A stretch of DNA of 64,000 nt from assembly GCA_977017645.1 (NCBI GenBank), contig OZ360221.1, forward strand, positions 132,990,001-133,054,000. Direction: 5' to 3'. Origin of the DNA: Torpedo marmorata. Taxonomy: Eukaryota. The position numbers and the translations under genes are program-made. Of this stretch, positions 293 through 59,950 are shown piece by piece. The notes below the pieces were generated by a model that saw only the letters and a program-made list of their open reading frames with translations, was not told the DNA's origin and did no database searches. Every line of letters starts with the position of its first letter. Positions within the stretch are counted from its first letter, which is position 1.

Positions 293-897
293 TGCCAAAT
301 CATTTCCTAATAATAACAAAATACCATCCACTGGTAAACTGGATCTAGCCCCAATTTTAACAGGTCCATTAACTAATTCTGATTTCAACATTATCTTGTG
401 CAAAGGTATCGATTCCGAATCACATCCAAAACCTTTAATCAAATTTATTTCACCTGTGGCAGTCTTATCATGAAACTCCAAAACATTGGCTAACACAAGT
501 GACTGAGCTGCCCCAGTATTTCTGAGTATTTTTACTGTTACCTGTGGTGATCCTTCCTCTAATGAAACTTTACCCTCTGACACAAAATATTCAAACTCCT
601 TCCTAATCTTACCAGCAGCTCCTTTTTTACTACCATGTATTTCATCTCTTTGAATACAATCCTCTGGTACGGATTCCTGTTCTCTCTTTCTCTTCAAGGA
701 AAAAACAGTTCACTACCACATGACCAGGTTTCTTACAATAATTACAAAATGGACCAGAAAGTTTCTCCTTTTCAGGCTTTTTTTCTTCTGTAGTAAACAC
801 GAAAATCTGTAGACACCGTAATAATGTAGTAAAAAACACAAAAGCTGGAGAACTCAGCAGGTCAAACAGTGTCTTTTATGTAGCAAAGGTAGAAATA

Positions 898-938
898 CAT
901 AACCGACGTTTCGGGCTTGAGCCCTTCATCAAAGTATG
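898..938 (-). ncRNA. Minimal type I hammerhead ribozyme-like motif (C3U core variant) in Penelope terminal repeat
   Basis: Minus strand reads CATACT-TTGATGA-A-GGGC-TCAA-GCCC-GAAAC-GTC-GGTTATG: UGAUGA and GAAA core boxes, a 4-bp stem II, a palindromic ACGT stem III, a GUC triplet and a bulged stem I. Confidence 0.7.
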
Positions 939-1123
939 AGAAAATGCCGGCAGGCGTCCGAACAAAGGAGTGAGGGGGGAAGGGGGGTGGCAAAGGCAGG
1001 AGATGATAGGTGGAGAAAGGAGGGAGGGGACAGCAGCAAAGAGTGGGAGGAGGGATGGCTGGGTGGGTGGAAAAAAACAGGAAGGACAGGTGAGGGGGGA
1101 GGGGAAGGGAACAACAAACAGGT

Positions 1124-2311
1124 TTAGTGGAAAGTAGAAAAGTCAATGTTAATGCCATCTGGCTGGAGAGTGCCGAGACGGAATATGAGATGTTGTTCCT
1201 CCAATTTGCGGGTAGTCTGGGTGGGATAGTACATGAGGCCATGGACAGACATGTGAGCGTGGGAGTGTGACCCAGAATTGAAATGGTTGGCTACTGGGAG
1301 GTCGCTGTTGTTGCAGACGGAGAGGAGGTGCTCAGCAAAGCGGTCTCCCAATCTACGACCGGTCTCTCCAATGTATAGAAAGCCACAAAGGGAGCACCGG
1401 ATGCAGTAGATAAGTCCTCTGGATGTACAAGTGAAGTGTAGTTTCACTTGGAAGGCCTGTTTGGGGCCCTGGACCGTGGTGAAGGGGGAGGTGTGGGCGC
1501 AGGTGTTGCACCTCCTGCGGGCACAGGAAAAGGTTCCGGGGGTGCGATGGGTGGGGAGGGACGAGTGCATGAGTGAATCGCGGAGGGAGCGGTCCCTACT
1601 GAAGGCCGAGAGGGGAGGAGAAGGAAAAATGTGTCTGGTGGTGGGATCCTGCAGCAAGTGCCGGAAATTCCGGCGGATAATGTGTTGGACGCAGAGGCTG
1701 GTGGGGTGGTAGGAGAGGATGAGGGGTACTCTATGTTTGTTGTGTCTGGGGGCAGAGGGGGCCAGGGCAGATGAGCGGGAAATGGAGGAGATGCGGGTGA
1801 GGGCTGAGTTGATGGTGGTGGAGGGGAAGCCACGTTTGTGGAAAAAGGCAGACATTTCAGAAGATCTGGAGTGGAACACCTCATCTTGGGAACAGATGCG
1901 GCGGAGGCGGAGAAATTGAGAGAAGGGGATGGAGTCCTTGCAGGGGACAGGGTGTGAGGATGTGTAGTCCAGATAGTTGTGGGAGTTGGAGGGTTTGTAG
2001 TAAATGTCGGTGGAAAGCTTGTCTCCCGAGATGGAGACAGAGAAATCCAGGAAGGGGAGAGTGTTATCGGAGATGGACCAGGTGAGTTTGAGATCGTGGT
2101 GAAAGTTGGATGCAAAGTGGATGAAGCTGACAAGCTCATCATGGGTGCATGAGGCAGCTCCGATGTAGTCGTCGATATACCGGAGGAAGAGATGAGGGGT
2201 CTTGCCTATGTAGGCTTGCAGCATGGATTGCTCCACAAACAGGCAGGCGTAGCTGGGACCCATGCGGGTACCCATGGCTACTCCTTTGATTTGGTGGAAG
2301 TGGGATGAGTT
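1124..2311 (-). pseudogene. Penelope RT C-terminal half plus GIY-YIG endonuclease, 5'-truncated inverted arm
   Basis: C-terminal ~395 aa of ORF 1124..2620 (NSSHFHQIKGVAMGT...RYIDD...YIGET...GINIDF); the frame is open across the arm but has no native start. Confidence 0.9.
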
Positions 2312-4662
2312 TCCCTCCATCCCCCCCCACTCTCTGGCTACCCTCCCTACCCCCCTCTCCCACCCTCCTACCTCCCCTACCCCCCACATCCCCCCTCCGA
2401 CTCCCTCCAACCTCCCCCACCCTCCACCTCCCCCCTCTGACCCCCCCAACCCTCCCCCTCCCCCCAACACCCTCCACGACACCGATCCCCACTCTAACCC
2501 CTGCTTGGTTTTTACTATCCCCCCGACCTTCCCCTCTCTGAGACGGAGCGCTCTGTCCTCAGTAGAGGCCTCACCTTCGTCCCCCTCCGCCCACACCTCA
2601 ACGAGTTCCACGCACGCCATGATGCCGAACTCTTCTTCCGTCGCCTACGCCTCCATGCTCACTTCCATGACCGTGATTCTCCACCCCCCACCCTAGACCC
2701 TTTCTCCGGCTTCAAGCTTTCTTCCTCTTCCTGGACACCCCGCCCGGGCCAGCTGCCCGCTCTGGACCTTTTTATTTCCAACTGCCGCCGAGACATCAAC
2801 CGTCTCAACTTCACCACCCCCCTCTCGTATTCCAACCTCACTTCCTCAGAACGCTCTGCCCTCCACTCTCTCCGCAACAATCCCAACCTCACCATCAAAC
2901 CCGCAGACAAGGGCGGTGTGGTTGTGGTCTGGCGCACTGACCTCTACCTTGCCGAGGCCAGTCGACAACTCTCAGACACCTCCTCCTACCGACCCCTCCC
3001 ACAGGACCCCACCACAGCACATCAAGCCACGGTCTCCAACACCATCTCCGACCTCATCACCTTCGGTCACCACCCCTCCACGGCCACCAACCTCATTCTC
3101 CTCCACCCCCGCACTGTCCGTTTCTACCTTCTACCCAAGATACACAAACCCAACCATCCGGGCAGACCCATTGTTTCTGCCTGCTCCTGCCCCACCGAAC
3201 TAGTTTCATCTTACCGTGACTCCATCTTTTCTCCCCTGGTCCAATCCCTCCCCACCTACATCCGCGACACCTCATGCCCTCCATCTCCTCAATGACTTCA
3301 GATTCCCTGAACCGGACCGCATCATCTTCACCATGGATGTCCAATCCCTTTATACCTCTATCCCCCACACAGAAGGTCTAAAAGCACTTCGCTTCTTCCT
3401 GGACCAAAGACCCGACCAGTCACCCTCTACCACCACCCTCCTCCGCCTGGCAGAACTTGTCCTCACTCTCAATAACTTCTCCTTCAACTCATCCCACTTC
3501 CTCCAAATCAAAGGAGTAGCCATGGGTACCCGCATGGGTCCCAGCTACGCCTGCCTGTTTGTGGGCTTTGTGGAGTAATCCATGCTGCAAGCCTACACAG
3601 GCAAGATCCCTCATCTCTTCCTCCGGTATATCGACGACTACATCGGGGCTGCCTCATGCACCCACGATGAGCTTGTCAACTTCATCCACTTCGCATCCAA
3701 CTTTCACCACGATCTCAAACTCACCTGGTCCATCTCCGATAACACTCTCCCCTTCCTGGATCTCTCTGTCTCCATCTCGGGAGACAAGCTTTCCACCGAC
3801 ATTTACTACAAACCCTCCAACTCCCACAACTATCTGGACTACACATCCTCACACCCTGTCCCCTGCAAGGACTCCATCCCCTTCTCTCAATTTCTCCGCC
3901 TCATCTGTTCCCAAGATGAGGTGTTCCACTCCAGATCTTCTGAAATGTCTGCCTTTTTCCACAAACGTGGCTTCCCCTCCACCACCATCAACTCAGCCCT
4001 CACCCGCATCTCCTCCATTTCCCGCTCATCTGCCCTGGCCCCCTCTGCCCCCAGATACAACAAACAGAGTACCCCTCATCCTCACCTACCACCCCACCAG
4101 CCTCCGCGTCCAACACATTATCCGCCGGAATTTCCGGCACTTGCTGCAGGATCCCACCACCAGACACATTTTTCCTTCTCCTCCCCTCTCGGCCTTCCTT
4201 AGGGACCGCTCCCTCTGCGATTCACTCGTGCACTCGTCCCTCCCCACCCGTCGCACCCCCGGAACCTTCCCCTGTGTCTGCAGGAGGTGCAACACCTGCC
4301 CCCTCACCACGGTCCAGGGCCCCAAACAGGCCTTCCAAGTGAAACTACACTTCACTTGTACATCCAGAGGACTTATCTACTGCATCCGGTGCTCCCTTTG
4401 TGGCTTTCAAAACATTGGAGAGACCGGTCGTAGATTGGGAGACCGCTTTGCTGAGCACCTCCTCTCCGTCCGCAACAACAGCGACCTCCCAGTAGCCAAC
4501 CATTTCAATTCTGGGTCACACTCCCACGCTCACATGTCTGTCCATGGCCTCATGTACTATCCCACCCAGACTACCCGCAAATTGGAGGAACAACATCTCA
4601 TATTCCGTCTCGGCACTCTCCAGCCAGATGGCATTAACATTGACTTTTCTGCTTTCCACTAA
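2312..4662 (+). pseudogene. Penelope RT-GIY-YIG ORF, 5'-truncated and disrupted
   Basis: Consecutive ORF pieces 2918..3295, 3216..3578, 3582..4202 and the end of 3559..4662 rebuild the RT-EN protein; frameshifts near 2530, 3275 and 4065 and a TAA at 3576-3578. Confidence 0.92.
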
Positions 4663-4847
4663 ACCTGTTTGTTGTTCCCTTCCCCTCCCCCCTCACCTGT
4701 CCTTCCTGTTTTTTTCCACCCACCCAGCCATCCCTCCTCCCACTCTTTGCTGCTGTCCCCTCCCTCCTTTCTCCACCTATCATCTCCTGCCTTTGCCACC
4801 CCCCTTCCCCCCTCACTCCTTTGTTCGGACGCCTGCTGGCATTTTCT

Positions 4848-4888
4848 CATACTTTGATGAAGGGCTCAAGCCCGAAACGTCGGTTATG
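4848..4888 (+). ncRNA. Minimal type I hammerhead ribozyme-like motif (C3U core variant) in Penelope terminal repeat
   Basis: CATACTTTGATGAAGGGCTCAAGCCCGAAACGTCGGTTATG, the exact reverse complement of 898-938. Confidence 0.7.
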
Positions 4889-6048
4889 TATTTCTACCTT
4901 TGCTACATAAAAGACACTGTTTGACCTGCTGAGTTCTCCAGCTTGTGTTTTTTACTTTTTTTCTTCTGTACCTCTCGCACTATTTCCCCATTTACTCTCT
5001 ACCTTAATTGGATACTTTAAATTACCTTCTTTAAAAGGTTTACCTTCTGAAAAGGGTCGATTGGGTACAAATCTCACTGTGAGTTAAGGCATATTCATCA
5101 GCTAACATAGCAGCCTCCTGCCAAGTTGTCACTCCCTTTTCATCTAAATATGTTTTGATATCATTAGGAACACACCGTTTAATTTCCTCAACTAACATCA
5201 ACTCTTTCAGACTGTTATAATCACCATTTATTTCTTTTGATGTGCACCATCGGTCAAAGCACAATATCATAGGCAAACTCCATATAAGACTGGTTCCCAG
5301 CTTTCTTCAAAGTCCTGAATTTTTGACTATATGCTTCTGGAACCAATTCATAAGCCTTAAGCTGTATCATAATCAGCGGCTTCTTGAATTGTAAGGGCAG
5401 AGTAAGCCTGGTAAGCTTTCCCTTTAATTACATTCTGTAACACGAGGGACCAATGGTTTCTTGGCCATTTCAAACTCTTAGCCACTTTCTCAAAGTGTTG
5501 AAAATATTTATCAATATCATCCTCATTGAATGGAGGAACTAACTTTATCTCTCTACTTGACATAAAATTGTCACGAGAACCAAGAGATGAAGCTCCTGCT
5601 CCTCTCATTTCTAGTTCAAACCTCCGTTTTTTTCTGCTTCTTCCGCCTCAAACCTCCTTTGCCGTTCTGCTTCCTCTTGCTCTAATTTCCTTGTTTTGAA
5701 CTCCATCTCCTTTACACGTAGTTCAATCTCCATTCTACGTCTCTTTAACTCACCCTGTTCCAGCTGTACTGGCTGCTTAAGAGATTTCATCTCAGGAAAT
5801 TGTTTTAACTCTTCTTCAAACTTCTCTTTTACAGTGTTCAGCCATAATTTTCTGAATTACTATCTTTTTCATTGACCGTTTTACCTCTAAGTTGCAACTC
5901 TTGAGCGATAAGCAACAAGTCATCCTTTGTCACCCCCTTCAAATCTGTAAAGCTTGGCTGTGTCAAAAACCCTTCAATTTCCATTGCTGTTGTTTATCCA
6001 TAAACACTATAAGCCTTTTAATTGATTTTCAAAAAGATATTTAGTTAA

Positions 6049-7625: not shown

Positions 7626-7723
7626 AACGTTTGTCGTCAAGAATCCCTACATTCTTAAATCTTGCACGAGGTCTCAGTGTTCCTTGTCAATTTGTGAATT
7701 ACTCCAACACAACTATATAATTA

Positions 7724-7945: not shown

Positions 7946-8657
7946 TCAACAATAAAAAACAAAAACCTTTATTTGTTGCAGATACTGATTTTAGGACTTT
8001 AGCTATTTATTAATTACAATGATATTATTATAGGGTTGGAATAATCCACAAATTGATAAGGACTAAGACCACATGAACGATTTAAGAACAGAAATCCACT
8101 AATTTTCTTTTGAACAATCTACATTGTAACAGGTCATTTATGAAGACATGATTGTTGGCAGGTGTCTTATATACCATTTTAAAAAGCTTTCAGGTTGTCA
8201 GTTCTTACTGGGCTATCATCTTTTATTAAAGTGACCATTTATGATCTTCTCAATAATTTTTTTTCTAATTCGTTTTTAAAGAGGTTTATTGGTACAATTT
8301 ATACACTTTTCCATTTTTAATCTAATATTGAAGTATTTTCAATTATAAAAGTCCTCATAATTTTTCTATATATTTTGAAATTTTGTCAAATCTGTTTTCT
8401 ATTTATTAATCAATCACTTTTCATTAGCCTGCAGTGACTACAAATTGAAATGTAATTTCTCCTGTATTTGTATCGTTTGTTTTCTACTTAAATTTACAAG
8501 GCTAAACTAGCCTTGATGAATTTCAACACGTTAAGTAAAAACTGGTTTCAGTGTTTTAAAGATGGTCTTACATACCCGGTAGTTAAGTGTAAAATCTTAT
8601 CAGTCCTAATCCATGCAGGTTGTCAGTCTAATGAATTTTCTAAAGTTTGAGATTTAA

Positions 8658-9770: not shown

Positions 9771-10577
9771 AAAGTTTGAGATTTAATAATCACATGTATT
9801 TTAACTTTTTCGTTTGAGTAATTTATTTGGTATACACAGGTTGTTTTTTCTCAATGCACAGCTAGGTTAATTGGCTTAGTTTGCCCTTTGTTTGAAGCCA
9901 TCAAATCTAAATTCCATTAATAGAAGGCTAAATTTTGATAGTAGTGGGAAGTTTGCAGGTACGTGGACAATTCAATTTTATAGATACCAGGATTATTGAT
10001 AATCTTTCCCACTACTGAGAGAGACTTCAAATGCAAACACATTAGTACAGCAGGCAAATTAGATTCAGAAAATCACAAATCACTAACAAATGCTGAATAA
10101 AAACTAGTTATTGATATCCATGAACAGAGTTTTGATGAAGGTGAATCAACTGTTTATTTTTGCAGAATCTACCTGAACGACAAAGCATTTTTGTTTTAAT
10201 TTCAAATACAGTATCGGCAGCTTTTTCTTTGTATTCAGCTGTGAAGTTTGCTCCTTTTACTTTATAAAGAGTACCTGAAATGAGGACTTCATGTTAAAAA
10301 ATCTGAAATACAAGTTTCCTGATTGCGTACTGTTCTTTGCAGCAAATGTGACGGTGTACAATTTCTTGATTCTGATTCAAGTTTTGCAAGTTCATAAACA
10401 TGTTCTCTTGGCAATTCCTAAATATTAGTCACAAATTTCTAAATATCAACATATGTCTTTTGATACTCAAGATTAGATTTCTTCTCAAACTTTCTTAATG
10501 AGCACACATTTTGTTATTAAATATCTTATTTCTGAAAACATTTAAAGACTCTGATGTAAATCAGGTCTATATATGTT

Positions 10578-10790
10578 AGGCCAAACAGTGTACTTTATGT
10601 AGCAAAGATAAAGATACATAACCAATGTTTCCGGTTTAAGCCCTTCATCATACCTTCATGAAGGGCTCAAGCCCAAACTGTTGGTTATGTATTTCTTTGC
10701 TACATATAGTACACTTTTTGCCTTGCTGAGTTTCTCCAGCATTGTGTTTTTACTTCAATCATGGTGTCTGCAGACTTTCATGTTTTACTC
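10578..10790. mobile_element. Palindromic Penelope-derived mini-element (two head-to-head hammerhead-bearing ends), left arm shortened
   Basis: Arms are reverse complements around TACCT (10651-10655) and resemble 4854-4954; the right arm carries the extra tail TTCAATCATGGTGTCTGCAGACTTTCATGTTTTACTC. Confidence 0.85.
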
Positions 10791-10904
10791 CTATATTTGG
10801 TATTGCTCCTCATCGTTACCAGAATCCCATCTGTTTAAATCAATTGATGGTCAGAATTATTTTATAAAATATGAACCAGTTTAGATTTTATGACTTTAAA
10901 AGTC

Positions 10905-14000: not shown

Positions 14001-14182
14001 AATTGTTCACTGCTCTCTTGATAGAACATTACTATCCATTTAAGGCTATCCATCAAAAATGTTCCTCTTTCTTCCAATGCACTCCCAACACTTAACCCAA
14101 TTTTGACTGTTATTTGTCTTTCTTTGTACATCTAAATTTTATTTTACAAATCACATTTATTTCCACACCATCTCCATACTCA

Positions 14183-14260
14183 CTGTCTGACCTGCTGAGT
14201 TTCTCCAGCATTTGTGTTTTTTACTTCAACCACGGTGTCTACAGATTTTCGTCATTTACT
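14183..14260 (+). mobile_element. Isolated Penelope 3' terminus/tail fragment
   Basis: CTGTCTGACCTGCTGAGTTTCTCCAGCATTTGTGTTTTTTACTTCAACCACGGTGTCTACAGATTTTCGTCATTTACT matches the tailed ends at 793-870 (rc), 10715-10790 and 42600-42671. Confidence 0.85.
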
Positions 14261-17099
14261 TCAATAGTTCAGGAAGTCTTTTCCATTCTGAGACACATTG
14301 AATCATGCATATTGACACTATGATATCAAAACCATTGTCACTACAATGGCATTAACCATTTATAGTTTGAACATGCAATATTTTGAAAATTTAATGAACT
14401 GAGGATCATCCAAATATTGTTTTGCACAAGACAGATTTTAACATTTTCAATGGTAAGAAACTAGATGTTGGTGAAGATCGAAACAATTTAATCGTACCAA
14501 GAAATGAATAAAACAGCAATATTTAATTATGACCTACTTAAATTAAAAAGACAAAGCGTGACCGTCTTTGCTTTGTTTTTGTTGCTAGGATATAATAAAT
14601 TATCTACACTTCTTGACAAACAGAATAAAAGTCATGCAAAATGCATAATATGTAATTTAAGATGAATGGTAGTTTTGAAAGACAATGAAGATATCAATTT
14701 ATGGTCCTCAGAACAAGACAATTGTTCTTCACCACCACTAATGTCAAGAGAAACCTATCTTTTTATGCGATACTATTCCACTTTCATCAGAATGCATAAA
14801 AGTTTATATTTGCTAATGAGTTAACTGGAATTTATTATTAAAGTGTCTCAATGAATTGATTGCAAGATAAAGTGCAAGATTTATTCAGTCTTTGGATTAT
14901 ACTGACTTGGAAAGTTTATCAATCATTCAACTATATTACTTCATTCTGGTGTTTTACATAATTAATATGTAAACAGCCAAACATTTCAATATTATAAATT
15001 TAGAATATCTTACTGGAATAGATTTGTATTGCATCTAACACATGTATCTGAGTAAATATTCACAGTGACAGCAGCTTGCATAAAAACTAATAACATGAAT
15101 TTAAACATATAAAAAGTGTATAAATTTATACTTATTTATTGGTATATTTTACAAACAGTAAGAATAATTCATCCCACTATGTTAATATATTTTGTTTTGG
15201 ATCAGACATTTTTAATGTACTTACAATATGGATATATTAATGTTGCTTCAAAACAAATAAAATTATTGTTGGTGTGGTATGCAACAGATAGATAAATTGA
15301 TTACGTATATTGTCCACTATTCAACACAAAGATCACATGCTTCAGCAAAAAGTTCAAACAAATTTATTAGAAAGTTTCCAAAGATAGAGTGCATGATTTC
15401 CAGAATCTTTTGTGCATAATTTGATAATTCTAATATTGTGAGAGGAATACAGAATCATTAGTGATATTAACATGATAGTTTTACAACTTAACATCAAAGA
15501 AGGGGTATCAAATTCCCCACTGAACAATAAATTAATCACTAAATTTACTTGAACAAAAGAAAAAACTCAATTCCAATGACTTCCACACATAGACTTAAAA
15601 AAAAACATTTTCCTATCCTGCTTAGAATTAAATCTCATTTAGTCTAATCAAATCTAGTTTTAAGTTGCCTGGACCCAAATCAAGGTACATTAATAGTTGC
15701 ATTTGCATACCTATGCATCAGAATTATGCAGATGTTTGCATATTATCATGAATATGCTTAAATTAAAATGGAAAAATATGTCTTGGATTTAATAGGAACA
15801 CAACCCATTTTGTACTTATCAAAATAATTCTCAAACTTATTCTTCCATGAACAATGTGGATCTTTCATGTTAGTTTAAAAATTAAGTTTAAAGTTTCACT
15901 TTTATTTATGCATTTCTTTCAATTTATCAAATATCACAAATTCTAAAACCCAAGATGTACTTTGTAAGTCAGTCAATTCAATACAAATCAGTTACTTGAA
16001 TTCACTGTCAAGATTACCTCTAACGTAACAAAAGAGAGCCGTTTCTTTTTCACAATGCCATTTATATGAGAGCAATAATTTTTTAAACCAGATTTAATCT
16101 CCACTTCATTTGTACTAATGAAAACCTGGTTTCATTCAACTTTTCAAACATTTTAAGATTTTAAATAATTGTATACTGTTAGCAAGGATTACAATGCCCA
16201 AAGTAATGTACTCATTCAAAGTACGCCTATTACATCAGCTTTAAAAAAAAAGTATTTTAAAATATTATGGCAGAAAATGCAAAAAAGTTCCAAAACCTTT
16301 TATACAAATAGAGGTTAATTGACAAGTTCTTTTCACATAGACCTGCTGCAAAACTACACATTTTCCCCCTCAAATTAAGCAAGGGTGGTCAAATATATTA
16401 ATGTTTGTTTAACAACATTAAAATACTGAGATACAAAAAGTTCAAAAAGATTTTTTTTAAACCACAAAGGGAGTTAAAATTCTACATTTTCAAAAACTCA
16501 GTTTCTTAAATTAAAACAATATGCTATTAAGAATACAAGTTTGTAACCAATATTTGATAACTTCCATATGAATTTCGTTGGCATTTCATGGATTTAGAAC
16601 CAATTCAAAAGTAACCGTTGACGAGTATTAAGATTTGTTGCAAATTTGATCTGGATACTTAAATACATTTGCTGCACAGAAACATTTTTTTTCCTCCAAT
16701 TTTTCCATTTATAAAATTGTATACTTTATACATTGTGCATTTTTTTTTAATGCCAGGACATATTTCAGAAAGTAAGTTTCTGGAAATATAACTTTGTTAT
16801 ATTTCCAGACACAAAGTCCAATTTTGGTCCTTCCTATATATTTATATTGGAGTTTTAGTGATTCAAATTTATCAATTAACCTTAACCAAATTAAATGAGT
16901 ATTTTCATGTTTTGCTGGTTCTACGGATAGTTTTATTTGTTCTCAACATAGGCGGTTATTTTATCTTGTTTATTTGTACAAATTTAAGTGTCCCAAAAGT
17001 GGAGAATTGCACAGATATTGCACTGAATCACAGATTAACAATTATTCCACACTATTCGTACTCTGGAAAGCAAGAAGTGCACAATTTGTTTTTGTTTAG

Positions 17100-33399: not shown

Positions 33400-33837
33400 C
33401 CAAAAAATTAATTACCCTGATTCTCCCGACAAGGGATATGTGTTACCTTTAGCTAGTCTCTTTATATACTTATAGAAGCTTTTGCAGTCATTTCTGTAAT
33501 CTCTTAAGTTACTCTCTTGCTCTAGTTTTCCCCTTCCAATTAGACCCTTTGTCTTCTGCTAAATTCTAAATTTCTCCAGTCCTTGGTCTGTTGCTTTTCC
33601 AAGCTAATTTGTATGTTCCTTCTTTGGTTCTATTTTCCTCATTAACCATGGTTGAGCCACTTTGCCCAATTTTACAGCAAATAAATGTAGTTTTTGAAAT
33701 TCCTCAATTATCTTTAAATACTAACCATTGTCATTTTTTTAAAATTTTATTTAAATTTTTAAATCACAAAATACATAGAATAAAATGCATATATTTGAAA
33801 ATACATGTGATATACATTTTCTCCCCTACATCCCCAC

Positions 33838-33872
<35 letters not shown>

Positions 33873-35450
33873 TTATATATATAAAAAAAATATAGTAAAA
33901 GAGAAAAAGAAAAAAGAAAGATAGAAAAATAGAGTGAGGAGAAAACAAGCTACAAACTAATTCTACCATAGAGGTTATTTTCGCCAGTGGATCCGATATC
34001 CAGAGAATTTAAATTGTTAAACCCATAATTCTCATATATGGGCCCCAAATTTTCAAGAAAAAATGATATTTATTACGCAAATTATAGGTAATTTTTTCTA
34101 ATGGTATACATGAACGTAATTCTGCATGCCATCTTTCTAAATTTAAATCTACATCTGACTTCCAAGTAATAGCTATACACTTTTTCGAAACTGCTAAAAA
34201 CTATACGTAAAAATTCTACCTGATACATATTTAATCTATTTCTAATACTAAATTTTCTAATATCTCCAAATAAAAATAACATAGGATCCATCGTAAACAC
34301 AACATTAAAAATTCTCTCTAAAAAATTCTTAACTTTCAACCAAAAGTCTTGAATTTTTGAACATAACCATGTACAGTGAACAAAAGAGCCTATTTCACTC
34401 TTACATCTAAAACACATATCTGATAATGCTGGATTAAATTTCTTTAATTTTTTAGGTGCTAAATATAATTGATGAAAGAAATTATATTGTACTAGTCTAT
34501 ATCTAACGTTCAAGACTTTAGTCATACTTAATTTACATAAGTCTCTCCAATGATTTTCATCTATATTAACATTTAAGTCTAGTTCCCATTTTAATCTAGA
34601 TTTATGTAACCCTACTTTAGACATCTTTCTCTGAAATAATTTATACATTTGTGATATAAACTTATTAATATTAACTTTAGTAATTAACAATTCCAATTCA
34701 TTTTGTCTTGGTGCTATTAATTCATTCCCTAATATCTCAGTCAAAAAGGCTTTAACTTGAAAATAAACTAACATTGTATTGTCTAGTATATTAAATTTTT
34801 CTTTTAACCTTTGAAAAGTAACAAATCTACCAGCTTCAAAACAATCTTCCAAGGTCTTAATTCCCTTTTGAAACCATAATTTAAGTAACTGATTATCAAT
34901 AGAGAATGGTATAAGCAAATTTTGGTATATTGGTGTATAACCATTGTCATCTTAACATCAACCCATTAAATGCTCTCTGCCTGTCTATCCAAGTCAATTT
35001 GTATTGGTCAAGGAAACTCCAGGAAATCCTTCACTGTATTGCTACAAGTTTGGTTCTCCTAATCTACATGCAAATTAAAGTTTCCCTTTTATAATTGCTG
35101 TACCTTTATTGCACACTTATTTCTTGATGCCATCCCCAATCTCATGACAGGTGTTAGGGAGTCTGTACACCACTCCCACTCTCACTCATGTTCCCTGTCC
35201 TCAGGTGTTCCACAACTCGACCCCTGCAGACGCTACGTTAAGCCGATGTCCTTCCTTGCAATTGTGTTAATCTCTTTAATGAGTAATGCTACCCTACCTC
35301 CTTTTCCTTTCAGTCTATCTTCCTAAATACTGAGTGCCTTTTGAATATTAAGTTCCCAAACTTGGTTGCCTGGATCCATATCTCAGTAAACCAATCAGGT
35401 TATCACAGCTAATTCTGCTTATTCATCCACCTTATTTGCAAATGCTCCTT
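33400..35450 (-). mobile_element. Highly decayed CR1-like LINE internal fragment, interrupted by L1
   Basis: Pyrimidine-rich degenerate sequence with endonuclease-region remnants (GCTACCCTACCTCCTTTTCC..., AAAGTTTCCCTTT) on both sides of the L1 TSD; boundaries approximate. Confidence 0.4.
33735..34937 (-). mobile_element. 5'-truncated L1-clade LINE
   Basis: ORF 34082..34918 is homologous to 8647..9501; 13 bp TSD TAACCATTGTCAT at 33722-33734 and 34938-34950. Confidence 0.93.
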
Positions 35451-42245: not shown

Positions 42246-42733
42246 GGGCAGCACTGTTAGTGTAGTGGTTAGCACAATGCTATTACAGCGCCAGCAGCCC
42301 AGGTTCGAATCCAGCGCTGTCCGTAAGGAGTTTGTACGTTCTTCCAGTATATTTTTGGGTTTCTTTCGGGTGCTCTGGTTTCCTCCCACATTCCAAAGAT
42401 GCATGGGGTTAGTCAGTTAATTGGTCACAGAGTAAAAACACAATGCTGCAGAAACTCAGCAGGTCAAACAGTACTTTGTAGCAAAGATAAAGATACAAAA
42501 CCAATGTTTCGGGCTTGAGCCCTTCATCAAGGTATGATGAAGGGCTCAAGCCCGAAATGTTGATTTTGTATCTATCTTTGCTACATAAAGTACATTGTTG
42601 AAACTGCTGAGTTTCTCCAGCATTGTGTTTTTACTTCAATCACGGTGTCGACAGAAGTTTGTGTTTTACTCCTAATTGGTCACTTGGGTGTATTTAGGTG
42701 GCATGGGCTGGAAGGGCCTGTTACCGTGCTGTA

Positions 42734-42743
<10 letters not shown>
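42246..42743 (+). mobile_element. tRNA-derived V-SINE (HE1-like) containing a palindromic Penelope mini-element
   Basis: A/B boxes (TAGTGTAGTGG, GGTTCGAATCC), V-domain (GGGTGCTCTGGTTTCCTCCCACA) and CR1-type tail GGAAGGGCCTGTTACCGTGCTGTAT; homologous to 7378-7625. Confidence 0.85.
42429..42672. mobile_element. Palindromic Penelope-derived mini-element with 11 bp TSD
   Basis: ~100 bp inverted arms around AGGTA (42530-42534), each with TGATGAAGGGCTCAAGCCCGAAA; extra tail on the right arm; TAATTGGTCAC duplicated at 42418-42428 and 42673-42683. Confidence 0.92.
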
Positions 42744-44270: not shown

Positions 44271-44365
44271 GCTCAGTGGTACAATTGAATTATTTGTCAT
44301 GTGCTCCGAGAAATGATGGAAAAGCTTTGCATGCTATCCAGGCAAGTCAGTTAACAGCACCAATA

Positions 44366-44590
44366 GCCTGAATATGACTGGGATTGTCTGATCTCGGAAG
44401 CTAAGCAGGCACAGGACTGGTCAGTACTTGGAGCGGAGACTGCCTAGGAACACCAGGTGCTGTAGGTTCTGTGAGGGGTGCTGGACAAAGTAGCAACTCT
44501 GTCTGCCTTACGGTAGACAAATTAAAGAATTTCATGTAATACTACATTTAGAATGTAACATACATGACAATAATGGAACCTTTACCTTCA
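44366..44590 (+). mobile_element. 5S rRNA-derived SINE (SINE3-type) with Rex1/Babar-like tail
   Basis: GTCTGATCTCGGAAGCTAAGCAGG...CTGGTCAGTACTTGGAGCGGAGACTGCCTAGGAACACCAGGTGCTGTAGG (5S box A/IE/C region), then GAATTTCATG-hairpin-CATGACAATAA and (ACCTTT)n. Confidence 0.88.
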
Positions 44591-48074: not shown

Positions 48075-48313
48075 GATGAAGAAGTTAGTTTGCCAGAGTT
48101 GTCTTGGATAAGCACCAACCTTTTTCAAAATACTAGCAGTTAATGCTTAAAAATACGTGTGAACTGTTATGGTCTGAAGCTCAGCATTAATGAAAAATTA
48201 AATTATCCAACAGTAAGTTGGTACTGGTCTCTAAACTAGTTTTGCTCTTCCATTCACTGGTAAACTAGCTTTATGGTAATAAAGTCGATAGAAGAATGAG
48301 TGATCCCCGAGAG

Positions 48314-49350
48314 CCGGGTTTCCCAAACTTTTTCTTTCCACTCACATACCACTATAATTACCGTAATTCCTATGCCATAGGTGCTCAGTAAGGGATTACG
48401 TAAAGTGGTATGTGAGTGGAAAGAAAAATCAGAATCAGAATCAGAATCAGAATTTATTGTCATGAACAAGTCATGAAATTCGGTGCTTTGCGGCAGCATC
48501 ATAGTGCAATTAACATTCATATTAACCATTCTAACGACATTACTATATAAAATTATAAACAATAGTGCACTAGTGTCTTTGGTTCATTGATTGTTCAGGA
48601 ATCTGATGGCAGCGGGGAAGAAGCTGACCTTGTGCCGTTGAGTGCTCGTCTTTAGGCTCCTGTACCTTTTCCCCGATGGAAGCAGCGTGAAGAGGGCATG
48701 GCCTGGGTGGTGGGGGTCCTTGAGGATAGAGGCTGCTTTATTAAGACATCGCCTCATGTAGATGTCCTCGATGGAGTGAAGTTTGGTGCCCGTGATGTCA
48801 CAAGCCGAGGTAACAACCTTCTGGAGTTTGCACTTGTCCTGGGAGTTGGCACCACCATACCAGGCAGTGATGCAACCAGCTAGAATGCTCTCCACGGTAC
48901 ACCTGTAGAAGTTCACAAGAGTCTTTGGCGACATACCGAATCTCCGCAATCGCCTCACAAAGTATAGCCGCTGACGAGCCTTCTTTGTGATTGCATCCAC
49001 GTGGATGCTCCAGGACAGATCCTCGGAGATGTTGACACCCAGGAATTTGAAGTTCTTGACCCTCTCCACGACTGAGCCCTCGATGAGGACTGGGTTGAAA
49101 ACCACTGTTTTAATCGTACCTAATTGATTTGTTATGTGCACGGTTTCATAACTCCAAAGGAAATGGGCCAATGACAATTTTTCTCAAGCAAAATATTTCA
49201 GTAACAATTGGGTCTAGAACAGTGGTTCTCAACCTTTTTTTACCACTCACATACCACTTTACGTAATCCCTTACTAATCACAGAGCACCTATGGCATAGG
49301 GATTACTTAAAGTGGTATGTGAGTGGAAAGAAAAAGTTTGGGAAACCCTG
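48314..49350. mobile_element. hAT (Charlie-like) composite MITE, interrupted by a Rex fragment
   Basis: Long TIRs C(C/A)GGGTTTCCCAAACTTTTTCTTTCCACTCACATACCACT; 8 bp TSD CCCGAGAG (48306-13) / CCCTAGAG (49351-58), 7/8 match; internal CAGTGGTT ends. Confidence 0.8.
48428..49095 (-). mobile_element. 5'-truncated Rex1/Babar LINE (subfamily B)
   Basis: Most of ORF 48584..49177 is nearly identical to the C-terminus of 45057..46178; (TTCTGA)n tail. Confidence 0.93.
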
Positions 49351-50887
49351 CCCTAGAGAATCAGTGACGTACAATGGGGAGCTCTGCATGCTGCGTGTGC
49401 ACAATGGAATTGTTACAGTATTTAAAAAAAAAACGGATCTTTTTAATTGAAGGATGTGAATGTTGATTGTAATTCAGCATACCTGCCCAATCTGTGCGCT
49501 GAAAATGACAGCAAGTTCACTCTTTGAATCATTTGATGTTTTTGGGGATTTTGAGATGTGTTGAGTGCAGTACAATTCCAAGCGTGCTGTATGGTGTTGA
49601 GTTATCTTGCAGGTTGATGATTCTTGTGCTCCCCCTGCACTTCATAAGGTGGCAAAGATTGCTGCGAGATTGCCAAACAAAGTGTACCACAACGTAACAG
49701 AGATGGGGTTGCTTAAGTGGTGGACTATTGTCTCCTGCATTCGGAAAAGGTTCTTGAGTGGTGTTGCAGGAATGTGAAGAATGTGAGCGTTTATCCTGTA
49801 TTTCAGCCTATTTTAAGTGGTCAGAAAGTTTTGGAAACAAGTCATTTGATGCGGGGGATTAAAAGAATTTCTGACCAGTTTTTGTTTTGAAACCACAATA
49901 GCTGTGTGACAGATCCAGTGCTGCAGATAGTTATTGTTTCAGCATTTCTGAATGTTGAATAATTCTTACCAGGCCAAAGCTTAAAACTGTCAAGGTCTTG
50001 CATGCATACACAGATTATTTGTCATTTTAAGGAATACTGATGGAACTACAAAAGGTCAGTAATGACCATGTCATCTGGGGGGAAAAAAGAAAATATTCCA
50101 CTTCTGATTCTAAGATCACATTGAAGCCAATGAGATCGAGTCTAAGAAACTTCGTGATGAGTAAATTGATAATCCAACAACTACAACTGTGTATTCATTT
50201 TCATGTTGAGCACAGTGCCAGTCAAGGGCATAACTCTCATCTAGACTCTTTTGGCATTCTCCTTGGTCATTTTATGCCTTGACCTGCAGTGTTGCTTCTG
50301 GAGTTCTGTTCACTGTTTGAACCAAAACAACAAGCTTCATTACAATCAAGTGGTCATGTGAAACACCAACTGAACATTAGCGAGCAGGTTATTGGTGAGC
50401 ACATGGGCAATGACAGTTTCTGGAAATGTTTGTGTAGATGGATGGGGTGGCTTTGGTAAGTGCTTTGGGGACAGAAAAAACTGACACTTTGCCATGTTCT
50501 TTGTTGGTGCCAGTTTGAAGTACTAGAACAACGCAAATTATCATTTTAGCCAAGATTACGGGACCCATGACCTTTTGTGCAGTACTCTTGGCTGCTGTTT
50601 GATATTACATGGAGAAGTCAATGGGCTGAAAAGTTTGGTGGATTATTCGCTCTGCCCTTTAAGGTGTGAAGTCAATGTTTTGGCTTTTCCATTTAATCTG
50701 CCACAAAAGATGGAAACATTTTGGTGTTTTAATTGCCGATTAAGGGTCAGGTAATGGTAATTGCTGGAGTCCACCCATCTCTTTAAATTTATTGGCATCA
50801 TCAATGACAAACTAATGGGGAGCTTGGATGGCTGTATTGATCAGAAACTTCATTAGTACCTTCTAGTTGATGTCAGAGGTATTGTGT

Positions 50888-53828: not shown

Positions 53829-56716
53829 AAAAAATACCGGTGAAATAACTTATAAACCCCAAGAAATAAATGAATCTTTTAAAGATTATTATCAGAATTT
53901 ATATAGATCTCAGGTTGATCATGACGATTTGAAGATTAATAGATTTCTATCTAAAATTACTTTACCTAAATTGAATATTCAGAATAAAAATTCTTTGGAT
54001 TTACCTTTTACGATGAGAGAAGTTAGTGAGGTTCTTTCGACGTTGAAAAGTGGTAAATCCCCTGGTGATGATGGATTTCCAGTAGAATTTTATAAGGAAT
54101 TTAAAGATTTATTAATACCTCCATATATGGAAGTATTGAATCAAATTACGGAAACCCATTTATTACCGAAAACATTTTTGAATGCTATTATCACAGTTAT
54201 ACCAAAGAAAGATAGAGATGTATTAAAAACTGAGTCATATAGACCTATTTCTTTGTTAAATGTAGATTATAAAATAATGGCAAAGATTTTGGCTAATAGA
54301 ATAGCTAAATATTTACCAAATTTGATACATCCAGATCAAGCTGGCTTTATTAAAAATAGATATTCAAAAGACAATATAGCTAGATTAATAAGTTTAATTA
54401 ATTTATATAAAAAGAAACAGGATTTACCATTGGTTGTAACGCTGGATGCAGAAAGGGCTTTTGACAGATTAGAATGGAATTTTTTATTTAAGGTGTTAGA
54501 GAAATTTGGTTTTGGGAATACTTTTATAAATTGGATTAAAGCTATAATATAGAGAACCTACAGCTAAAGTAATTACAAATGGACAAATATCGCCAAAATT
54601 TCCTTTAACGCATTGTACGAGGCAGGGATGTCCCCTGTCACCAGCCCTATTTGTTTTGGCAATAGAACCTTTGGCTGAATTGATTAGAATAGATCCTAAC
54701 AAAGTAGGGATTAAAGTAGGTATGGAAGAACATAAGATTAGTCTGTTTGCAGATGATGTATTAATATATATGACGAAATCTATTACATCACTTCAACAAC
54801 TAGCTATTATATTAACAGAATATGGTGAAATATCTGGTTATAAAATTAATTCAGATAAAAGTGAGATAATGGCTTTATCTCAAGGTGATTATACTAGATG
54901 TAGAGAGGTCACGGAATTTAAGTGGGCAAAAGAAGGAATCAAATATTTGTGAGTTAAAGTGGATACAAAATTAGAAAATTTGTATAAATTAAATTATGTA
55001 CCTTTATTTATGAAAATAAAGAAAGATTTGGAAAATTGGAAAGATTTCCCTATAACTTTAATGGGAAGAGTAAATTGTATTAAGATGAATATTTTTCCAA
55101 GAATTCAATATCTTTTTCAATCAATTCCTTTTGGAATTCCAAAATTTTTTAAAAAAGTTTTAGTTTATTATTAGGAAATTTTTATGGAAAGGGAAGTTAG
55201 CAAGAGTAAGTATGGATAAATTAACATGGAATTATGAGATGGGAGGATTGCAACTTCCTAATTTTCAATATTATTATAAAGCAGCTCAATTAAAATTTGT
55301 TAATGAATTTTTTGATTTAGCTAAATCTTCTGCTTGGATTAATATAGAATTAAATAATATAGGAGAAAATTATAAAGAGGATATTATTTATAAGTGGAAC
55401 TCTAAATTATTATCAGTAAAAAAGAAAAATTCACCGATTATTAAACATTTGTTGGAAATATGGACACAGGTAGATAAAGAAATAGGTGGAAAAGGGTTAA
55501 TTTACTTAAATATGCCATTATATCAAAATCCACTTTTACCATTTACTATTAATAATCAGTTATTGAAATTATGGTTTCAAAAAGGAATTAAGAATTTTAA
55601 AGATTGTTTTGAGGCTGGAAGATTTGTTAAGTTTCAAAGATTGAAGGAAAAATTTAATGTATTAGATAGTACATGGTTAGCTTACTATCAAGTTAAAGCT
55701 TTTTTTGATTGAGAAATTAGGGGATGATTTGATTGCACCAAGACAAAATGAGTTAGAATTATTAATAACTAAAGCAAATGTCAATAAGTTTATTTCTCAA
55801 ATGTATAAATTATTTCAGAGAAAAATGTAGGATTACATAAATCAAGATTAAAATGGGAATTAGATTTAAATGTTAATATAGCTGAAAATCATTGGAAAGA
55901 TTTATGTAAATTAAGTATGACTAAAGTTATTAATGTTAGATATAGATTAGTACAATATAATTTTTTCCATCAATTTATATTTAACACCAAAAAAATTAAA
56001 GAAATTTAATCCGACATTATCAGATTTGTGTTTTAGATGTAAGAGTGAAGTAGGTTCTTTTGTTCACTCTACATGGTTATGTCCAAAAATTCAAGATTTT
56101 TGGTTGAAAGTTAAGAATTTTTTAGATAGAGTTTTCAATGTTATGTTTCCATTGGATCCTATGTTATTTTTATTCGGAGATATTAGAAAATTTAGTATTA
56201 GGAATAGATTGAATATGTATCAGGTAGAATTTTTACGAATTGCTTTAGCTGTTTCAAAAAAAATGCATTGCTATTACTTGGAAATCAGATTTAGATTTAA
56301 GTTTAGAAAGGTGGCATGCAGAACTCCGTTCGTGTATTCCTCTGGAAAAGATTACTTATAATTTACGTAATAAGTATCATTTTTGAAAATTTGGAGCCCA
56401 TATATGAGAGTTATGGGTTTAATGATTTGAAAATCTCTAGATATCAGGTCTACTGGCGAGTTTAACCTCCATGATAGAATTAGCTTGTAGATGGTTCTCC
56501 CCTTACTATTAATCTATCATTTTCTTCTTTTTTACTATACTTTATATTTTTTTTAATTATTTTTTAGAATAGTGGGGATGGGGGGTTTGGGAAGGGAGGG
56601 TGGGTATGGGGGGAGGAAATATGTATCACATGTATTTTGAAAGCTATACATTTTAATCTATGTATTTTGTGATTTAAAAATTTTTAAATAAAATAATTAA
56701 AAAAAAAAAAAAAAAA
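53829..56716 (+). mobile_element. 5'-truncated L1-clade LINE with RT, CCHC, 3'UTR and poly-A; disrupted
   Basis: KSPGDDG, YRPISLLNVDYKI, DQAGF, LDAERAFD, RQGCPLSP, LFADD, IKYL, CFRC; 14 bp TSD AGTGAGGAGATGTT at 53815-53828 and 56717-56730. Confidence 0.95.
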
Positions 56717-56952
56717 AGTGAGGAGATGTTGAGTGTCCACGATAAGTCACTAGTTAAGTGAACTCCAAGGAACTTGGTGCTCTCAACTCTTTCTACTACA
56801 GAGTTGTTGATGTGTAGTGGAGGGTGGTCATTCCTGGTCCTCCTGAAGTCCACGATCATCTCCTTCGTCTTGTCCACGTTGAGATTCAGGTTGTTACTCT
56901 CGCACCATTTCACGAGATTTTCCACCTCTTCTCTGCACTGCAACTCATTGTT

Positions 56953-58704
56953 TTTTTTAAAATATTTTAAAATTTTAAATCACAAAATACATAAGATAAA
57001 ATATAAAATTGTCAAAATACATGTGATACATTTTCACCCCCCCCGCCTCCCTCCCCTCCCACCCCTTCTAATCTAGTAAAAATAATCAGAATTTATTGTC
57101 ATGAACAAGTCATGAAATTCGGTGTTTTGCGGCAGCATCATAGTGCAATTAACATTCATATTAACCATCTTACGACATTACTAAAAAAATTATAAACAAT
57201 AGTGCACGAAAAGTAAGGCAGTGTCTTTGGTTCATTGATTATTCAGGAATCTGATGGCAGTGGGGAAGAAGCTGTCCTTGTGCCGTTGAGTGCTCGTCTT
57301 TAGGCTCCTGTACCTTTTTCCCGATGGAAGCAGAGTGAAGAGGGCATGGCCTGGGTGGTGGGGATCTTTGAGGATAGAGGCTGCTTTTTTAAGACACCGC
57401 CTTAATAAAAAGAAAGAAAGAAAAAGATAGAATAAGGAGAATGTCAATCTAAAAAATACATCAATAACAAATTTTATTATGGAGGATAGGTTCGCCAGTC
57501 AGATCCGATGTCCAGAGATCTTGAAATCGTTAAACCAACAACCTTCATATATGGGCTCCATATTTTCAAAAAGAAATGATATTTATTACGTAAATTATAA
57601 GTAATTTTTTCAAGTGGTATACATGAATGAAGTTCTGCATGCCATCTTTCTAACCCTAAATCTACATCAGATTTCCAAGTGATAGCAATACATTTCTTAG
57701 AAACAGCTAAAGCAATTCGCAAAAATTCTATTTGATACATATTTAATTTCATCTTAATACTAACTCTTTTAATACCTCCAAATAAAAATGTCATAGGGTC
57801 CATTGGGAATGTAATTTTTAATACTTTATCTAAAAACTTTTTAACTTTCAACCAAAAATCATAAACTTTTGGACAGAACCATGTAGAATATACAAAAGAA
57901 CCTTCCTCTCTATTACATCTAAAACATAAGCCTGGTAATGTCGCGTTAAATTTCTTTAACTTTTTAGGTGTTAAATATAATTGATGAAAAAAATTATATT
58001 GAACTAATCTATATCTAACATTAATAATCTTCGTCATACTTAATTTACATAGTTCTTTCTATTGTTATTCAAATCTAATTCCCATTTTAATCTTGATTTA
58101 TGAATTCCTACTTTAGGGATTTTTCTCTGAAACAATCTATACATTTGAGAAATAAATTTATTTACACCCCCGTTAGTAACTAATCATTCTAACTCACTGT
58201 CTTGGTAGAATCAAATTATAACCTAATTTCCCAACTAAAAATGCTCTAATTTGATAATAAGCAAAAAGTGTATTATCCAATACATTAAACTTATCTTTCA
58301 TTCTTTGAAAAGTAATAAATTTACCAGCTTCAAAACAGTCATTTATTTTCTTAATTCCTTTTTGAAACCAAATTTTAAATAATTGATTATCAACAGTAAA
58401 TGGAATAAGTTCATTTTGATAGAGGCATTTTTGGAGAAATCAATCCTTTCCATCCTATCTCCCTATCCACTCTATTCCATATTTCTAACAAATGTTTAAA
58501 GATAGGAGAGTTCTTCCTTCTTGTTAATATTAATTTAGAATTCCATTTATAAATAACTTCTTCTTTGAAATCTTCTCCTATATTATTTAATTCTATTCTA
58601 ATCCAAGCAGAAGACTTAGTTAAATCAAAGAATTCATTAACAAATTTTAGTTGAGCTGCTTTATAATAATTTTGAAAATTATGAAGTTGTAAACCACCCA
58701 TTAG
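56953..58704 (-). mobile_element. 5'-truncated L1-clade LINE whose 3'UTR is interrupted by a Rex fragment
   Basis: ORFs 58411..58701 and 57477..58037; TSD TGCAACTCAT(T/C)GTT at 56939-56952 and 58705-58718. Confidence 0.92.
57084..57402 (-). mobile_element. Short Rex1/Babar subfamily B 3' end inside L1 3'UTR
   Basis: [19 protein letters not shown]...IRFLNNQ plus the subfamily B tail. Confidence 0.92.
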
Positions 58705-59950
58705 TGCAACTCATCGTTGTTGCTGATGAGGCAAACTACTGTTGTCATCTGCAAACTTGCTGACACTGTTGGAGCTGGATCTGGCGATGCATTTGTGAGC
58801 CAGTAGCGTGAACAGCAGTGGCTGAGCACACAGCCCTGAGATGCACCAGTGCTCAGCGTGACGGTGCTCGATATTCTGCTACCGACCTGGACAGACTGTG
58901 GTCTTTCAGTTAGGAAGTCCAGGATCCAGTTACAGCGAGGGGTGTTGAGTCCCAGCGAGGACAGCTTCTCCACAAGCCTCTGGGGAATGTTCATTTTAAA
59001 CACCGAGCTGAAGTCAATGAACAACAGCCTGGCATGTGAGGTGTCATTCTCCAGGTGGGCCAGGACAGGGTGAAGCGACAAGGCTATAGCATCGTCTTTG
59101 GAACAGTTTCTTTGAAATGCAAATTGAAATGGATCCAGCGTCCCTGGGAGGTGTGTTTTGATGCGTTCCAACACTTGACGCTTTTCATAATGGAGGTCAG
59201 TGCCACAGGGCGGTAGTCATTGAGGCCTGTTATTGTCGCCCTCTTGTGTACTGGGATGATGGTGGCTGTCTTGCACCCTGCAGGAGCGATGGACTGCTGC
59301 AGTGAGGTGTTGAAGATGTCCTTGAAGACCTCCGTCAATTGGTCTGCGCAGTCCTTCAGTACCCGACCAGGTATGTTTTTCTGGTCCCGCTGCCTTGTTG
59401 TGGGTTCACCCTGGATAGGGTTCTCCTCACCTCGGCGGCGGCTATGCGAGGGCGCCAGTTCATCAGGGGGACACGGAGCTAGACTGTTTTCCATAACTTC
59501 TGATTATATTCCATGACTTCCTCTCCTCAATCTACATCTGCTGAACTTGTTTCTCTGAGCTACTCTTGCATGTCTCCCCAGGCTGCTTCAATCTCCTGTT
59601 TGTCATTTTGTTTCAGTATCTTTTCCTGAGTCAGAGACTACCCGTACCAGGCACCATTACTGTCAGTATCTGAACTCTGTCCATGGGATGCAAGTTATAA
59701 ATGCCCCGTAACAGCATCATTGCATCCCATGACTTCATTCTCTGTTGTTTAGAGGGTGGAACTTTTTTAAGATAATTTATCAATTTTTTTTTTTCTGAAT
59801 CGACTAGCATGCAGCTGTAAAACTCCTGATATTCATTAGTCATCTGTTTTTCTGTGGATGTCAGTGTTCGGTGTTTTACCTTTTGCTATATCTTCAGGGA
59901 GCCTAAGAGATGCAGGGTTCCTCATTAAATTCATCAGAAAAGGTGTCCTC

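What the first reader, a model, noticed from the sequence alone, without database searches (positions are those of the whole stretch)
42418..42683. Hammerhead-centred palindromic mini-retroelement with flip/flop centre (copies at 10.6 kb and 42.5 kb)
Seen: two elements of 210-245 bp (10578-10790, 42429-42672), each two Penelope 3' ends joined head-to-head. Both turn at the same position, immediately 5' of the hammerhead UGAUGA box. Both carry the extra ~35 nt tail on the right arm only, yet the 5-nt centre is TACCT in one (10651-55) and its reverse complement AGGTA in the other (42530-34). The 42.5 kb copy has an 11 bp TSD. Known: Penelope-like elements carry minimal hammerheads and can insert with an inverted 5' repeat. 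Inference: a shared turning point is unlikely for independent truncations, so this looks like a self-propagating non-autonomous fold-back family (retrozyme/MITE-like). Flip/flop isomers would point to snap-back or hairpin-transfer copying, or use of either strand as template. I do not know whether this family has been described.
Basis: partly seen in the sequence, partly recalled or inferred. Interest (0 to 1): 0.8.

Follow-up and report, generated by a model that had tools for sequence, protein, structure and literature searches.

The report
Recurrent head-to-head Penelope retroelement stubs
These small palindromes are real, but they look like stubs that an ordinary Penelope retrotransposon makes again and again when it copies its RNA into both ends of one DNA cut, not like a separate self-copying family.

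Summary
Both elements are Penelope 3' ends joined head-to-head, with the tail on one arm and centres TACCT and AGGTA. The self-propagating-family reading is not supported.

Among 170 tail-bearing copies picked without regard to junction, 65 carry an adjacent inverted arm, with turning points spread over about 1.4 kb. Only 8 turn near the hammerhead and 1 in this register. Fifty hammerhead-proximal junctions show 31 different centres; this register is the commonest (15 of 50), and joins are enriched for 1-3 nt microhomology. Flip and flop both occur (14:11; also 5:3, 3:1, 1:1 in other joins). The two arms of a copy match each other, and the same source variants recur across junction types. A 4.1-kb insertion in the window has the same anatomy.

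Best reading: twin target-primed reverse transcription from Penelope's two known start sites, joined at a quasi-dyad 5' of the hammerhead core. Flip or flop records which cDNA keeps the spacer. The anatomy is published; the flip/flop argument was not found in six searches.

The parts
42429..42672 (.). Head-to-head mini-insertion of two Penelope 3' ends (e42)
   Evidence: L118
42429..42529 (-). Tail-less arm; outer end at about +103 (T of TGATGA = 0), taken as the proximal RT start site; this arm keeps the parental spacer
   Evidence: two start sites from PMC11167929; assignment is inference
42530..42534 (.). 5-nt centre AGGTA = reverse complement of the parental bases just 5' of the UGAUGA box
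42535..42635 (+). Right arm, shared part, starting with the hammerhead-like motif (UGAUGA, stem II, GAAA)
42636..42672 (+). Penelope tail (~37 nt), ending at +136, taken as the distal RT start site
42418..42428 (+). Target-site duplication, left copy (11 bp)
42673..42683 (+). Target-site duplication, right copy
42247..42738 (+). Host repeat interrupted by e42; looks like a tRNA-derived V-SINE/HE1-type SINE (name recalled, not tested); second copy at 7477-7625
10579..10790 (.). Second head-to-head mini-insertion (e10): short left arm 10579-10650, centre TACCT 10651-55, tailed right arm 10656-10790
10567..10578 (+). Probable decayed TSD of e10 (10 of 12 identical to 10791-10802)
793..4954 (.). 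4.1-kb inverted Penelope insertion with the same anatomy: tailed arm 795-2311 (-), tail-less arm about 2312-4954 (+), broken RT and GIY-YIG reading frames
   Evidence: PF01541, E 1.6e-4, just under the curated cut-off
777..792 (+). 16-bp TSD of the 4.1-kb insertion (identical at 4955-4970)
14181..14269 (+). 5'-truncated, non-inverted tailed 3' end of the same element

Best explanation
The elements are the shortest products of ordinary Penelope (PLE) integration, each made independently from the RNA of an autonomous element. (1) The endonuclease cuts both strands about 13-16 bp apart (inferred from TSDs; two-strand cleavage is shown in vitro for another PLE). (2) Each DNA end primes reverse transcription: one at the distal start (+136, giving the tailed arm), the other at the proximal start (about +100, the tail-less arm). 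End positions are shown here; two start sites are shown in vitro. (3) cDNAs often stop just 5' of the hammerhead core (hot spot shown; cause unknown). (4) The two cDNA 3' ends, identical in sequence, anneal at 1-3 nt microhomologies in a near-dyad of the parent, and the gaps are filled (microhomology shown; annealing inferred). (5) Whichever cDNA ran further, or whichever strand of the mismatched centre survives repair, fixes the spacer as flip or flop (inferred). The products are most likely dead on arrival.
For: One tailed arm only in 48 of 50 junctions; TSD in 41 of 50, mostly 13-16 bp; short arm ends at +96..+110 in 39 of 50. The tail-less arm starts at +95..+110 in 42 of 65 unbiased inverted copies. 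The same anatomy occurs at every size, up to 4.1 kb in the window. Among 34 filler-free joins, overlap 0/1/>=2 nt = 8/13/13 against 18.6/11.0/4.4 expected, p=1e-5; this register is centred on a near-dyad of the parent. Flip and flop appear in each asymmetric join seen more than once: 14:11, 5:3, 3:1, 1:1. Arms within a copy differ by 6.9% against 11.7% between copies (16 intact copies of 30; 0 of 10,000 permutations). Three source variants recur across junction classes, and young copies differ from an autonomous tandem copy (L162) at only 0-3 arm positions in most cases. PMC11167929: the protein cleaves and extends both strands, the tail lies between two RT starts, and ribozyme cleavage is not needed.
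Against: All evidence is from genomic end products; no intermediate was seen. The cause of the stop near the hammerhead is unexplained: it is not at the predicted cleavage site (p=0.65) and does not match the 5' ends of upstream pLTRs. The tailed arm reaches further than the short arm in 28 vs 12 joins, a bias that fold-back of the tailed cDNA would also give. Twin priming on a palindromic RNA would likewise give matched arms and flip/flop, so some re-amplification is not excluded. Samples come from the first matches on contig C1 or the first 30 of 50 places, and need exact motifs. e10 and e42 are too decayed to assign individually (arms differ at 7-11 of about 60 sites).
Confidence: 0.78

Rival explanations
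1. Self-propagating non-autonomous palindromic family: palindromic copies are transcribed and re-inserted, so the junction is inherited and the spacer flips during copying.
For: One register is the commonest (15 of 50) and the exact junction occurs 50 times. Twin priming on a palindromic RNA would give mutually complementary cDNAs with a mismatched centre (inference). Four complex centres show repeated re-priming (L113, L128, L135, L139). Truly non-autonomous head-to-tail units of this element exist (L306).
Against: 1 of 170 unbiased copies is in this register. There are 31 centres among 50. No palindrome- or arm-specific diagnostic position was found, and three subfamilies are involved. Source variants cross junction classes. 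The two loci sharing an unusual filler centre share no private variants (L332, L339). The long hairpin sequesters the ribozyme core (-26 to -28 kcal/mol).
Confidence: 0.07
2. Single-cDNA fold-back (self-priming, in the spirit of PMC3846280, which proposed it on an antisense template): one cDNA snaps back at the near-dyad and copies itself.
For: Explains matched arms, a preferred dyad and the excess of joins where the tailed arm keeps the spacer (28 vs 12). It fits e10.
Against: Fold-back of a tail-primed cDNA can only give the e10 orientation; e42-type copies are 11 of 25. It does not explain why the second arm ends sharply at +96..+110 next to the TSD (39 of 50). Many inverted copies have very unequal arms or filler.
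Confidence: 0.1
3. Post-insertion inversion: all copies are born in one orientation and the loop later flips by recombination between the arms.
For: Short loops between perfect inverted repeats can invert (recalled, from organelle genomes). Arm-to-arm conversion could also homogenise arms.
Against: Very young copies, nearly identical to the source, already occur in both orientations (L148, L149 vs L315, L319). It does not explain the diversity of junctions.
Confidence: 0.05

Closest known systems
Inverted-pLTR insertions of EN+ Penelope-like elements (PMC3846280, PMC8557442; passages read)
   Same: Head-to-head inverted 5'-truncated copy, 30-40 bp tail on one end only, TSD, palindrome or overlap at the inverted junction.
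   Different: Here both arms stop within about 140 nt, so nothing but the pLTR end is left. Flip/flop ratios and junction spectra are not in the passages read; PMC3846280 explains the palindromes by self-priming.
Poseidon of Anolis carolinensis in vitro (PMC11167929; main text read)
   Same: Two RT start sites bounding the tail, both strands cut and extended, hammerhead about 100-140 nt upstream of the start sites, cleavage not required.
   Different: The text read does not describe how the two cDNAs are joined or a stop at the ribozyme's 5' edge. There the ORF starts in stem II; here the ATG lies about 50 nt past the tail.
Opposite-strand pairs of minimal hammerheads in Schistosoma (PMC4209133; parts 1-2 of 4 read)
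   Same: Two minimal hammerheads on opposite strands, ascribed to truncated PLEs.
   Different: Those pairs are 100-700 bp apart; here the two cores abut across 5 nt.
Non-LTR retrozymes (bioRxiv 10.64898/2026.07.22.740005, parts 1-2 of 5 read; PMC7229834, listing only)
   Same: Small, non-coding, PLE-derived, type I hammerhead motif.
   Different: Retrozymes are head-to-tail tandem repeats; these are head-to-head, and the hairpin masks the ribozyme.
LINE-1 twin priming (PMC2837659, abstract start in listing; mechanism otherwise recalled)
   Same: Both target strands prime; inverted structure inside a TSD; microhomology at the join.
   Different: L1's second primer anneals at variable internal sites, so the two pieces do not overlap. 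Here both primers start at fixed sites about 36 nt apart and copy the same stretch, giving a palindrome.

Membership tests
EN+ Penelope-like element, inverted-pLTR insertion | Parent encodes RT plus C-terminal GIY-YIG endonuclease | tested here: met
   Frames with an RT-type YIDD motif and a GIY-YIG hit (E 1.6e-4, 22.3 bits vs cut-off 22.6) end just upstream of the motif; Pfam gave no RT hit
EN+ Penelope-like element, inverted-pLTR insertion | Partial-tandem copies with pLTR followed by 5' UTR and ORF | tested here: met
   L162, L181; 30 loci
EN+ Penelope-like element, inverted-pLTR insertion | 30-40 bp tail on one end only; inverted 5'-truncated partner; TSD | tested here: met
   48 of 50 with one tail, 41 of 50 with TSD; e42 and the 4.1-kb copy
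Neptune clade of PLEs | Zn-finger-like motif between RT and EN; RT phylogeny | tested here: inconclusive
   A Cys cluster lies between RT and EN in the translation; feature from PMC8557442; no tree built
Minimal type I hammerhead ribozyme | Stem II hairpin followed by GAAA, stem I pairing | tested here: met
   Fold of the parental copy 4845-4900 (z -1.6, so weak)
Minimal type I hammerhead ribozyme | Core pair C3-G8 (or U3-A8) | tested here: not met
   U3 with G8 in both parental subfamilies; no Rfam hammerhead even at E 10
Minimal type I hammerhead ribozyme | Self-cleavage | not testable with these tools
   Needs an in vitro assay; no excess of 5' ends at the predicted cut
Non-LTR retrozyme | Head-to-tail tandem units, each with a hammerhead | tested here: not met
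   e10 and e42 are single head-to-head pairs
Non-LTR retrozyme | Circular RNA intermediate | not testable with these tools
   No usable RNA data
MITE (DNA-transposon derivative) | Fixed symmetric terminal inverted repeats and fixed-length TSD | tested here: not met
   Ends asymmetric, short arm ends +12..+110, TSD 9-18 bp
Self-propagating non-autonomous family | One inherited junction with family-specific diagnostic variants | tested here: not met

The most novel reading that the evidence does not exclude
The 5' edge of the Penelope hammerhead is a built-in stop-and-join site for symmetric double priming by a dimeric protein. Because twin priming on a palindromic RNA yields two fully complementary cDNAs with a mismatched 5-nt centre, some of these stubs re-amplify as self-regenerating palindromes whose spacer flips at each generation.
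Probability: 0.12. Interest if true: 0.72.

Novelty: new member of a known kind. Interest (0 to 1): 0.38.

Why it matters
How Penelope elements finish integration and form inverted repeats is still called open in PMC11167929 and PMC8557442. These stubs are a natural footprint library: over a thousand near-identical events with readable priming sites, cut stagger and join. For annotation, repeat finders may wrongly call such stubs a MITE or retrozyme family.

Tried and rejected
Transcription-start run-off as the cause of the hot spot: upstream pLTRs of copies carrying the 5' UTR start at scattered places (+112 to beyond -1340), and only about 1 of 23 that pass +10 stops at -20..+10 (30 loci, counted by eye); not supported.

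Ribozyme cleavage as the 5' end: 5 ends in +28..+34, no excess (p=0.65).

A spliced exon joined at stem I (as PMC4209133 notes for Drosophila): copies ending at -5..-9 share no upstream sequence.

One search was meant to count linear parents but its pattern was mis-specified; its 10 hits are not used. One fold (L109) used wrong coordinates and is ignored. One search crashed and was rerun.

Genome-wide counts of spacer orientation relative to the tail were not obtained, so the ratios rest on samples. No RNA holder was listed, and no reads were laid, so expression and orthologous-site polymorphism are open. ARAGORN found no tRNA in the host SINE. Two look-ups of earlier findings returned nothing. 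Dfam and Repbase could not be consulted, and no paper supplements were read.

Full report
Observation. Both elements are as described. e42 (42429-42672) has a 101-nt left arm, the centre AGGTA, a right arm with a 37-nt tail, and an exact 11-bp TSD. It splits a SINE-like repeat (the family name V-SINE/HE1 is recalled). e10 (10579-10790) has the centre TACCT in the same register, a short left arm and a decayed 12-bp TSD. Coordinates below count from the T of TGATGA = 0. The genome has 6.2 Gb in 4,566 contigs; I did not identify the organism.

Parent. The arms are the 3' end of a Penelope element. Frames with an RT-type motif and a GIY-YIG match end just upstream. In tandem copies the same end serves as pLTR before a 5' UTR and ATG. 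The spacer is simply the parental sequence at -5..-1, read on one arm or the other. The window itself holds a 4.1-kb head-to-head insertion of this element (793-4954) with a tail on one arm and a 16-bp TSD: the same anatomy at 17 times the size.

Unbiased sample. Exact 32-nt tail motifs occur 7,070 times (older subfamily) and 34,658 times (younger). I examined the first 80 and 90 of the 100 places each search listed on contig C1. An inverted arm was adjacent in 31 of 80 and 34 of 90 copies. Turning points run from about -1300 to +94. Both arms end within -20..+10 in 8 of 170, and the e42 register appears once (L076). The tail-less arm starts at +95..+110 in 42 of 65. There is a real hot spot: 50 5' ends in the 31 nt at -20..+10 against 43 in the 60 flanking nt (p=8e-5), and 15 against 13 in non-inverted copies alone (p=0.03). 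Older copies may have been broken after insertion, and BLAST ends are good to a few bases.

Junction spectrum. Head-to-head joins with exact 10-nt flanks number 1,362; the exact e42 junction numbers 50. The first 50 of the 1,362 were all read from the genome. They show 31 distinct centres in 12 length classes. The e42 register is commonest (15), then a -5/-5 register (11). Exactly one arm is tailed in 48 and neither in 2. A TSD was found in 41 (34 of 13-16 bp), and the short arm ends at +96..+110 in 39. Sixteen joins had filler or mutations and were left out of the next count. In the other 34, overlaps of 0, 1 and 2-3 nt number 8, 13 and 13, against 18.6, 11.0 and 4.4 expected from the parent sequence (p=1e-5). 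The axis of the e42 register, -3, is a near-dyad of the parent: four of the first five pairs in the young subfamily, three in the older one. A register with a 6-nt loop scores as well but was seen only once, so dyad strength is not the whole story.

Flip and flop. Of 30 of the 50 exact-junction loci, 14 have the e10 orientation, 11 the e42 orientation (one is e42 itself; two have complex centres) and 5 have no clear tail (p=0.69 against 1:1). One of those five, L120, has two tail-less arms inside a TSD. Other asymmetric joins flip too: 5:3, 3:1 and 1:1. Across all 50 the tailed arm reaches further in 28, the short arm in 12.

Descent. In 16 intact copies (14 truncated or complex ones dropped) the two arms differ by 6.9% within a copy and 11.7% between copies (0 of 10,000 permutations). 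No column separates tailed from tail-less arms, or palindromes from 76 linear copies, and the palindromes span at least three subfamilies. Nearest neighbours of the 32 arms were the partner arm (11), a linear copy (11), another palindrome (8) or tied (2). In the young subfamily, three source variants each occur in two or three junction classes, usually on both arms. The same source therefore gave different joins, and the same join came from different sources. Two loci with one unusual centre share no private variant.

Mechanism. PMC11167929 (abstract, main text and start of methods read) shows a PLE protein cutting and extending both strands, two RT start sites with the tail between them, a predicted dimer, and no need for ribozyme cleavage. 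Applied here, one DNA end is primed at +136 and the other near +100. Both cDNAs often stop just past the hammerhead, anneal at the near-dyad, and are filled in. End positions, TSDs, the hot spot, microhomology and flip/flop are shown here; two-ended priming, annealing and repair are inferred. Fold-back of a single tail-primed cDNA can give only the e10 form, which is why e42 matters. Why RT stops there is unresolved: neither the ribozyme cut nor a transcription start fits. In the palindrome the hairpin buries the core, and the core has U3 opposite G8 with no Rfam support, so ribozyme activity is doubtful.

Known or new. Inverted pLTRs with a one-sided tail, a TSD and palindromic junctions are described in PMC3846280 and PMC8557442 (passages). 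Opposite-strand minimal hammerheads are noted in PMC4209133 (parts 1-2 of 4). Retrozymes are defined as head-to-tail (bioRxiv 10.64898/2026.07.22.740005, parts 1-2 of 5). Six literature searches showed no paper on flip/flop spacers or on twin priming in Penelope, but I read only five papers in part, no supplements, and neither Dfam nor Repbase.

Verdict. A real and abundant class of structures, a new instance of a known kind, and not a separate mobile family on present evidence. Its value is as a footprint of the PLE integration mechanism. Interest 0.38.

Noticed in passing
L306 (G000:C5:20310600-20313200): A 363-bp unit spanning -73..+287 of this Penelope's pLTR and 5' UTR, in identical head-to-tail copies: 4.1 one way and at least 2.5 the other, meeting head-to-head. 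Retrozyme-like array; its core box is mutated. The preprint gives 363 bp as the mean retrozyme length for its one cartilaginous fish, which may be coincidence.
   Followed up: partly
L296/L297 (G000:C1:184927345-184930800): A similar non-autonomous unit of about 430 bp (-108..+318) in tandem and inverted arrangement.
   Followed up: no
L113, L128, L135, L139: Centres with short repeated segments that restart at about -7..-5, suggesting repeated re-priming at the hot spot.
   Followed up: no
L088, L104, L202: Inverted or truncated copies with 16-140 bp of other sequence captured at the junction.
   Followed up: no
young subfamily sample, L186-L275: A possible second cluster of 5' ends at -49..-35 (four at -35), also seen in some pLTRs.
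   Followed up: no
window 44350-44468 (+), with a related copy at 7711-7943: 5S rRNA-like head (Rfam RF00001, 39.6 bits) on a dispersed repeat; possibly a 5S-derived SINE.
   Followed up: no
window 48301-48428 and 49213-49363: Two further short palindromic repeats, related to each other, with no match to the Penelope end.
   Followed up: no
window 54999-61619: Large inverted and direct copies of a 1.1-1.7 kb repeat also found at 8651-9773 and 33734-34933.
   Followed up: no
L019/L022: The same palindromic insertion with the same flanks on contigs C928 and C11: a duplication or an unmerged haplotype.
   Followed up: no
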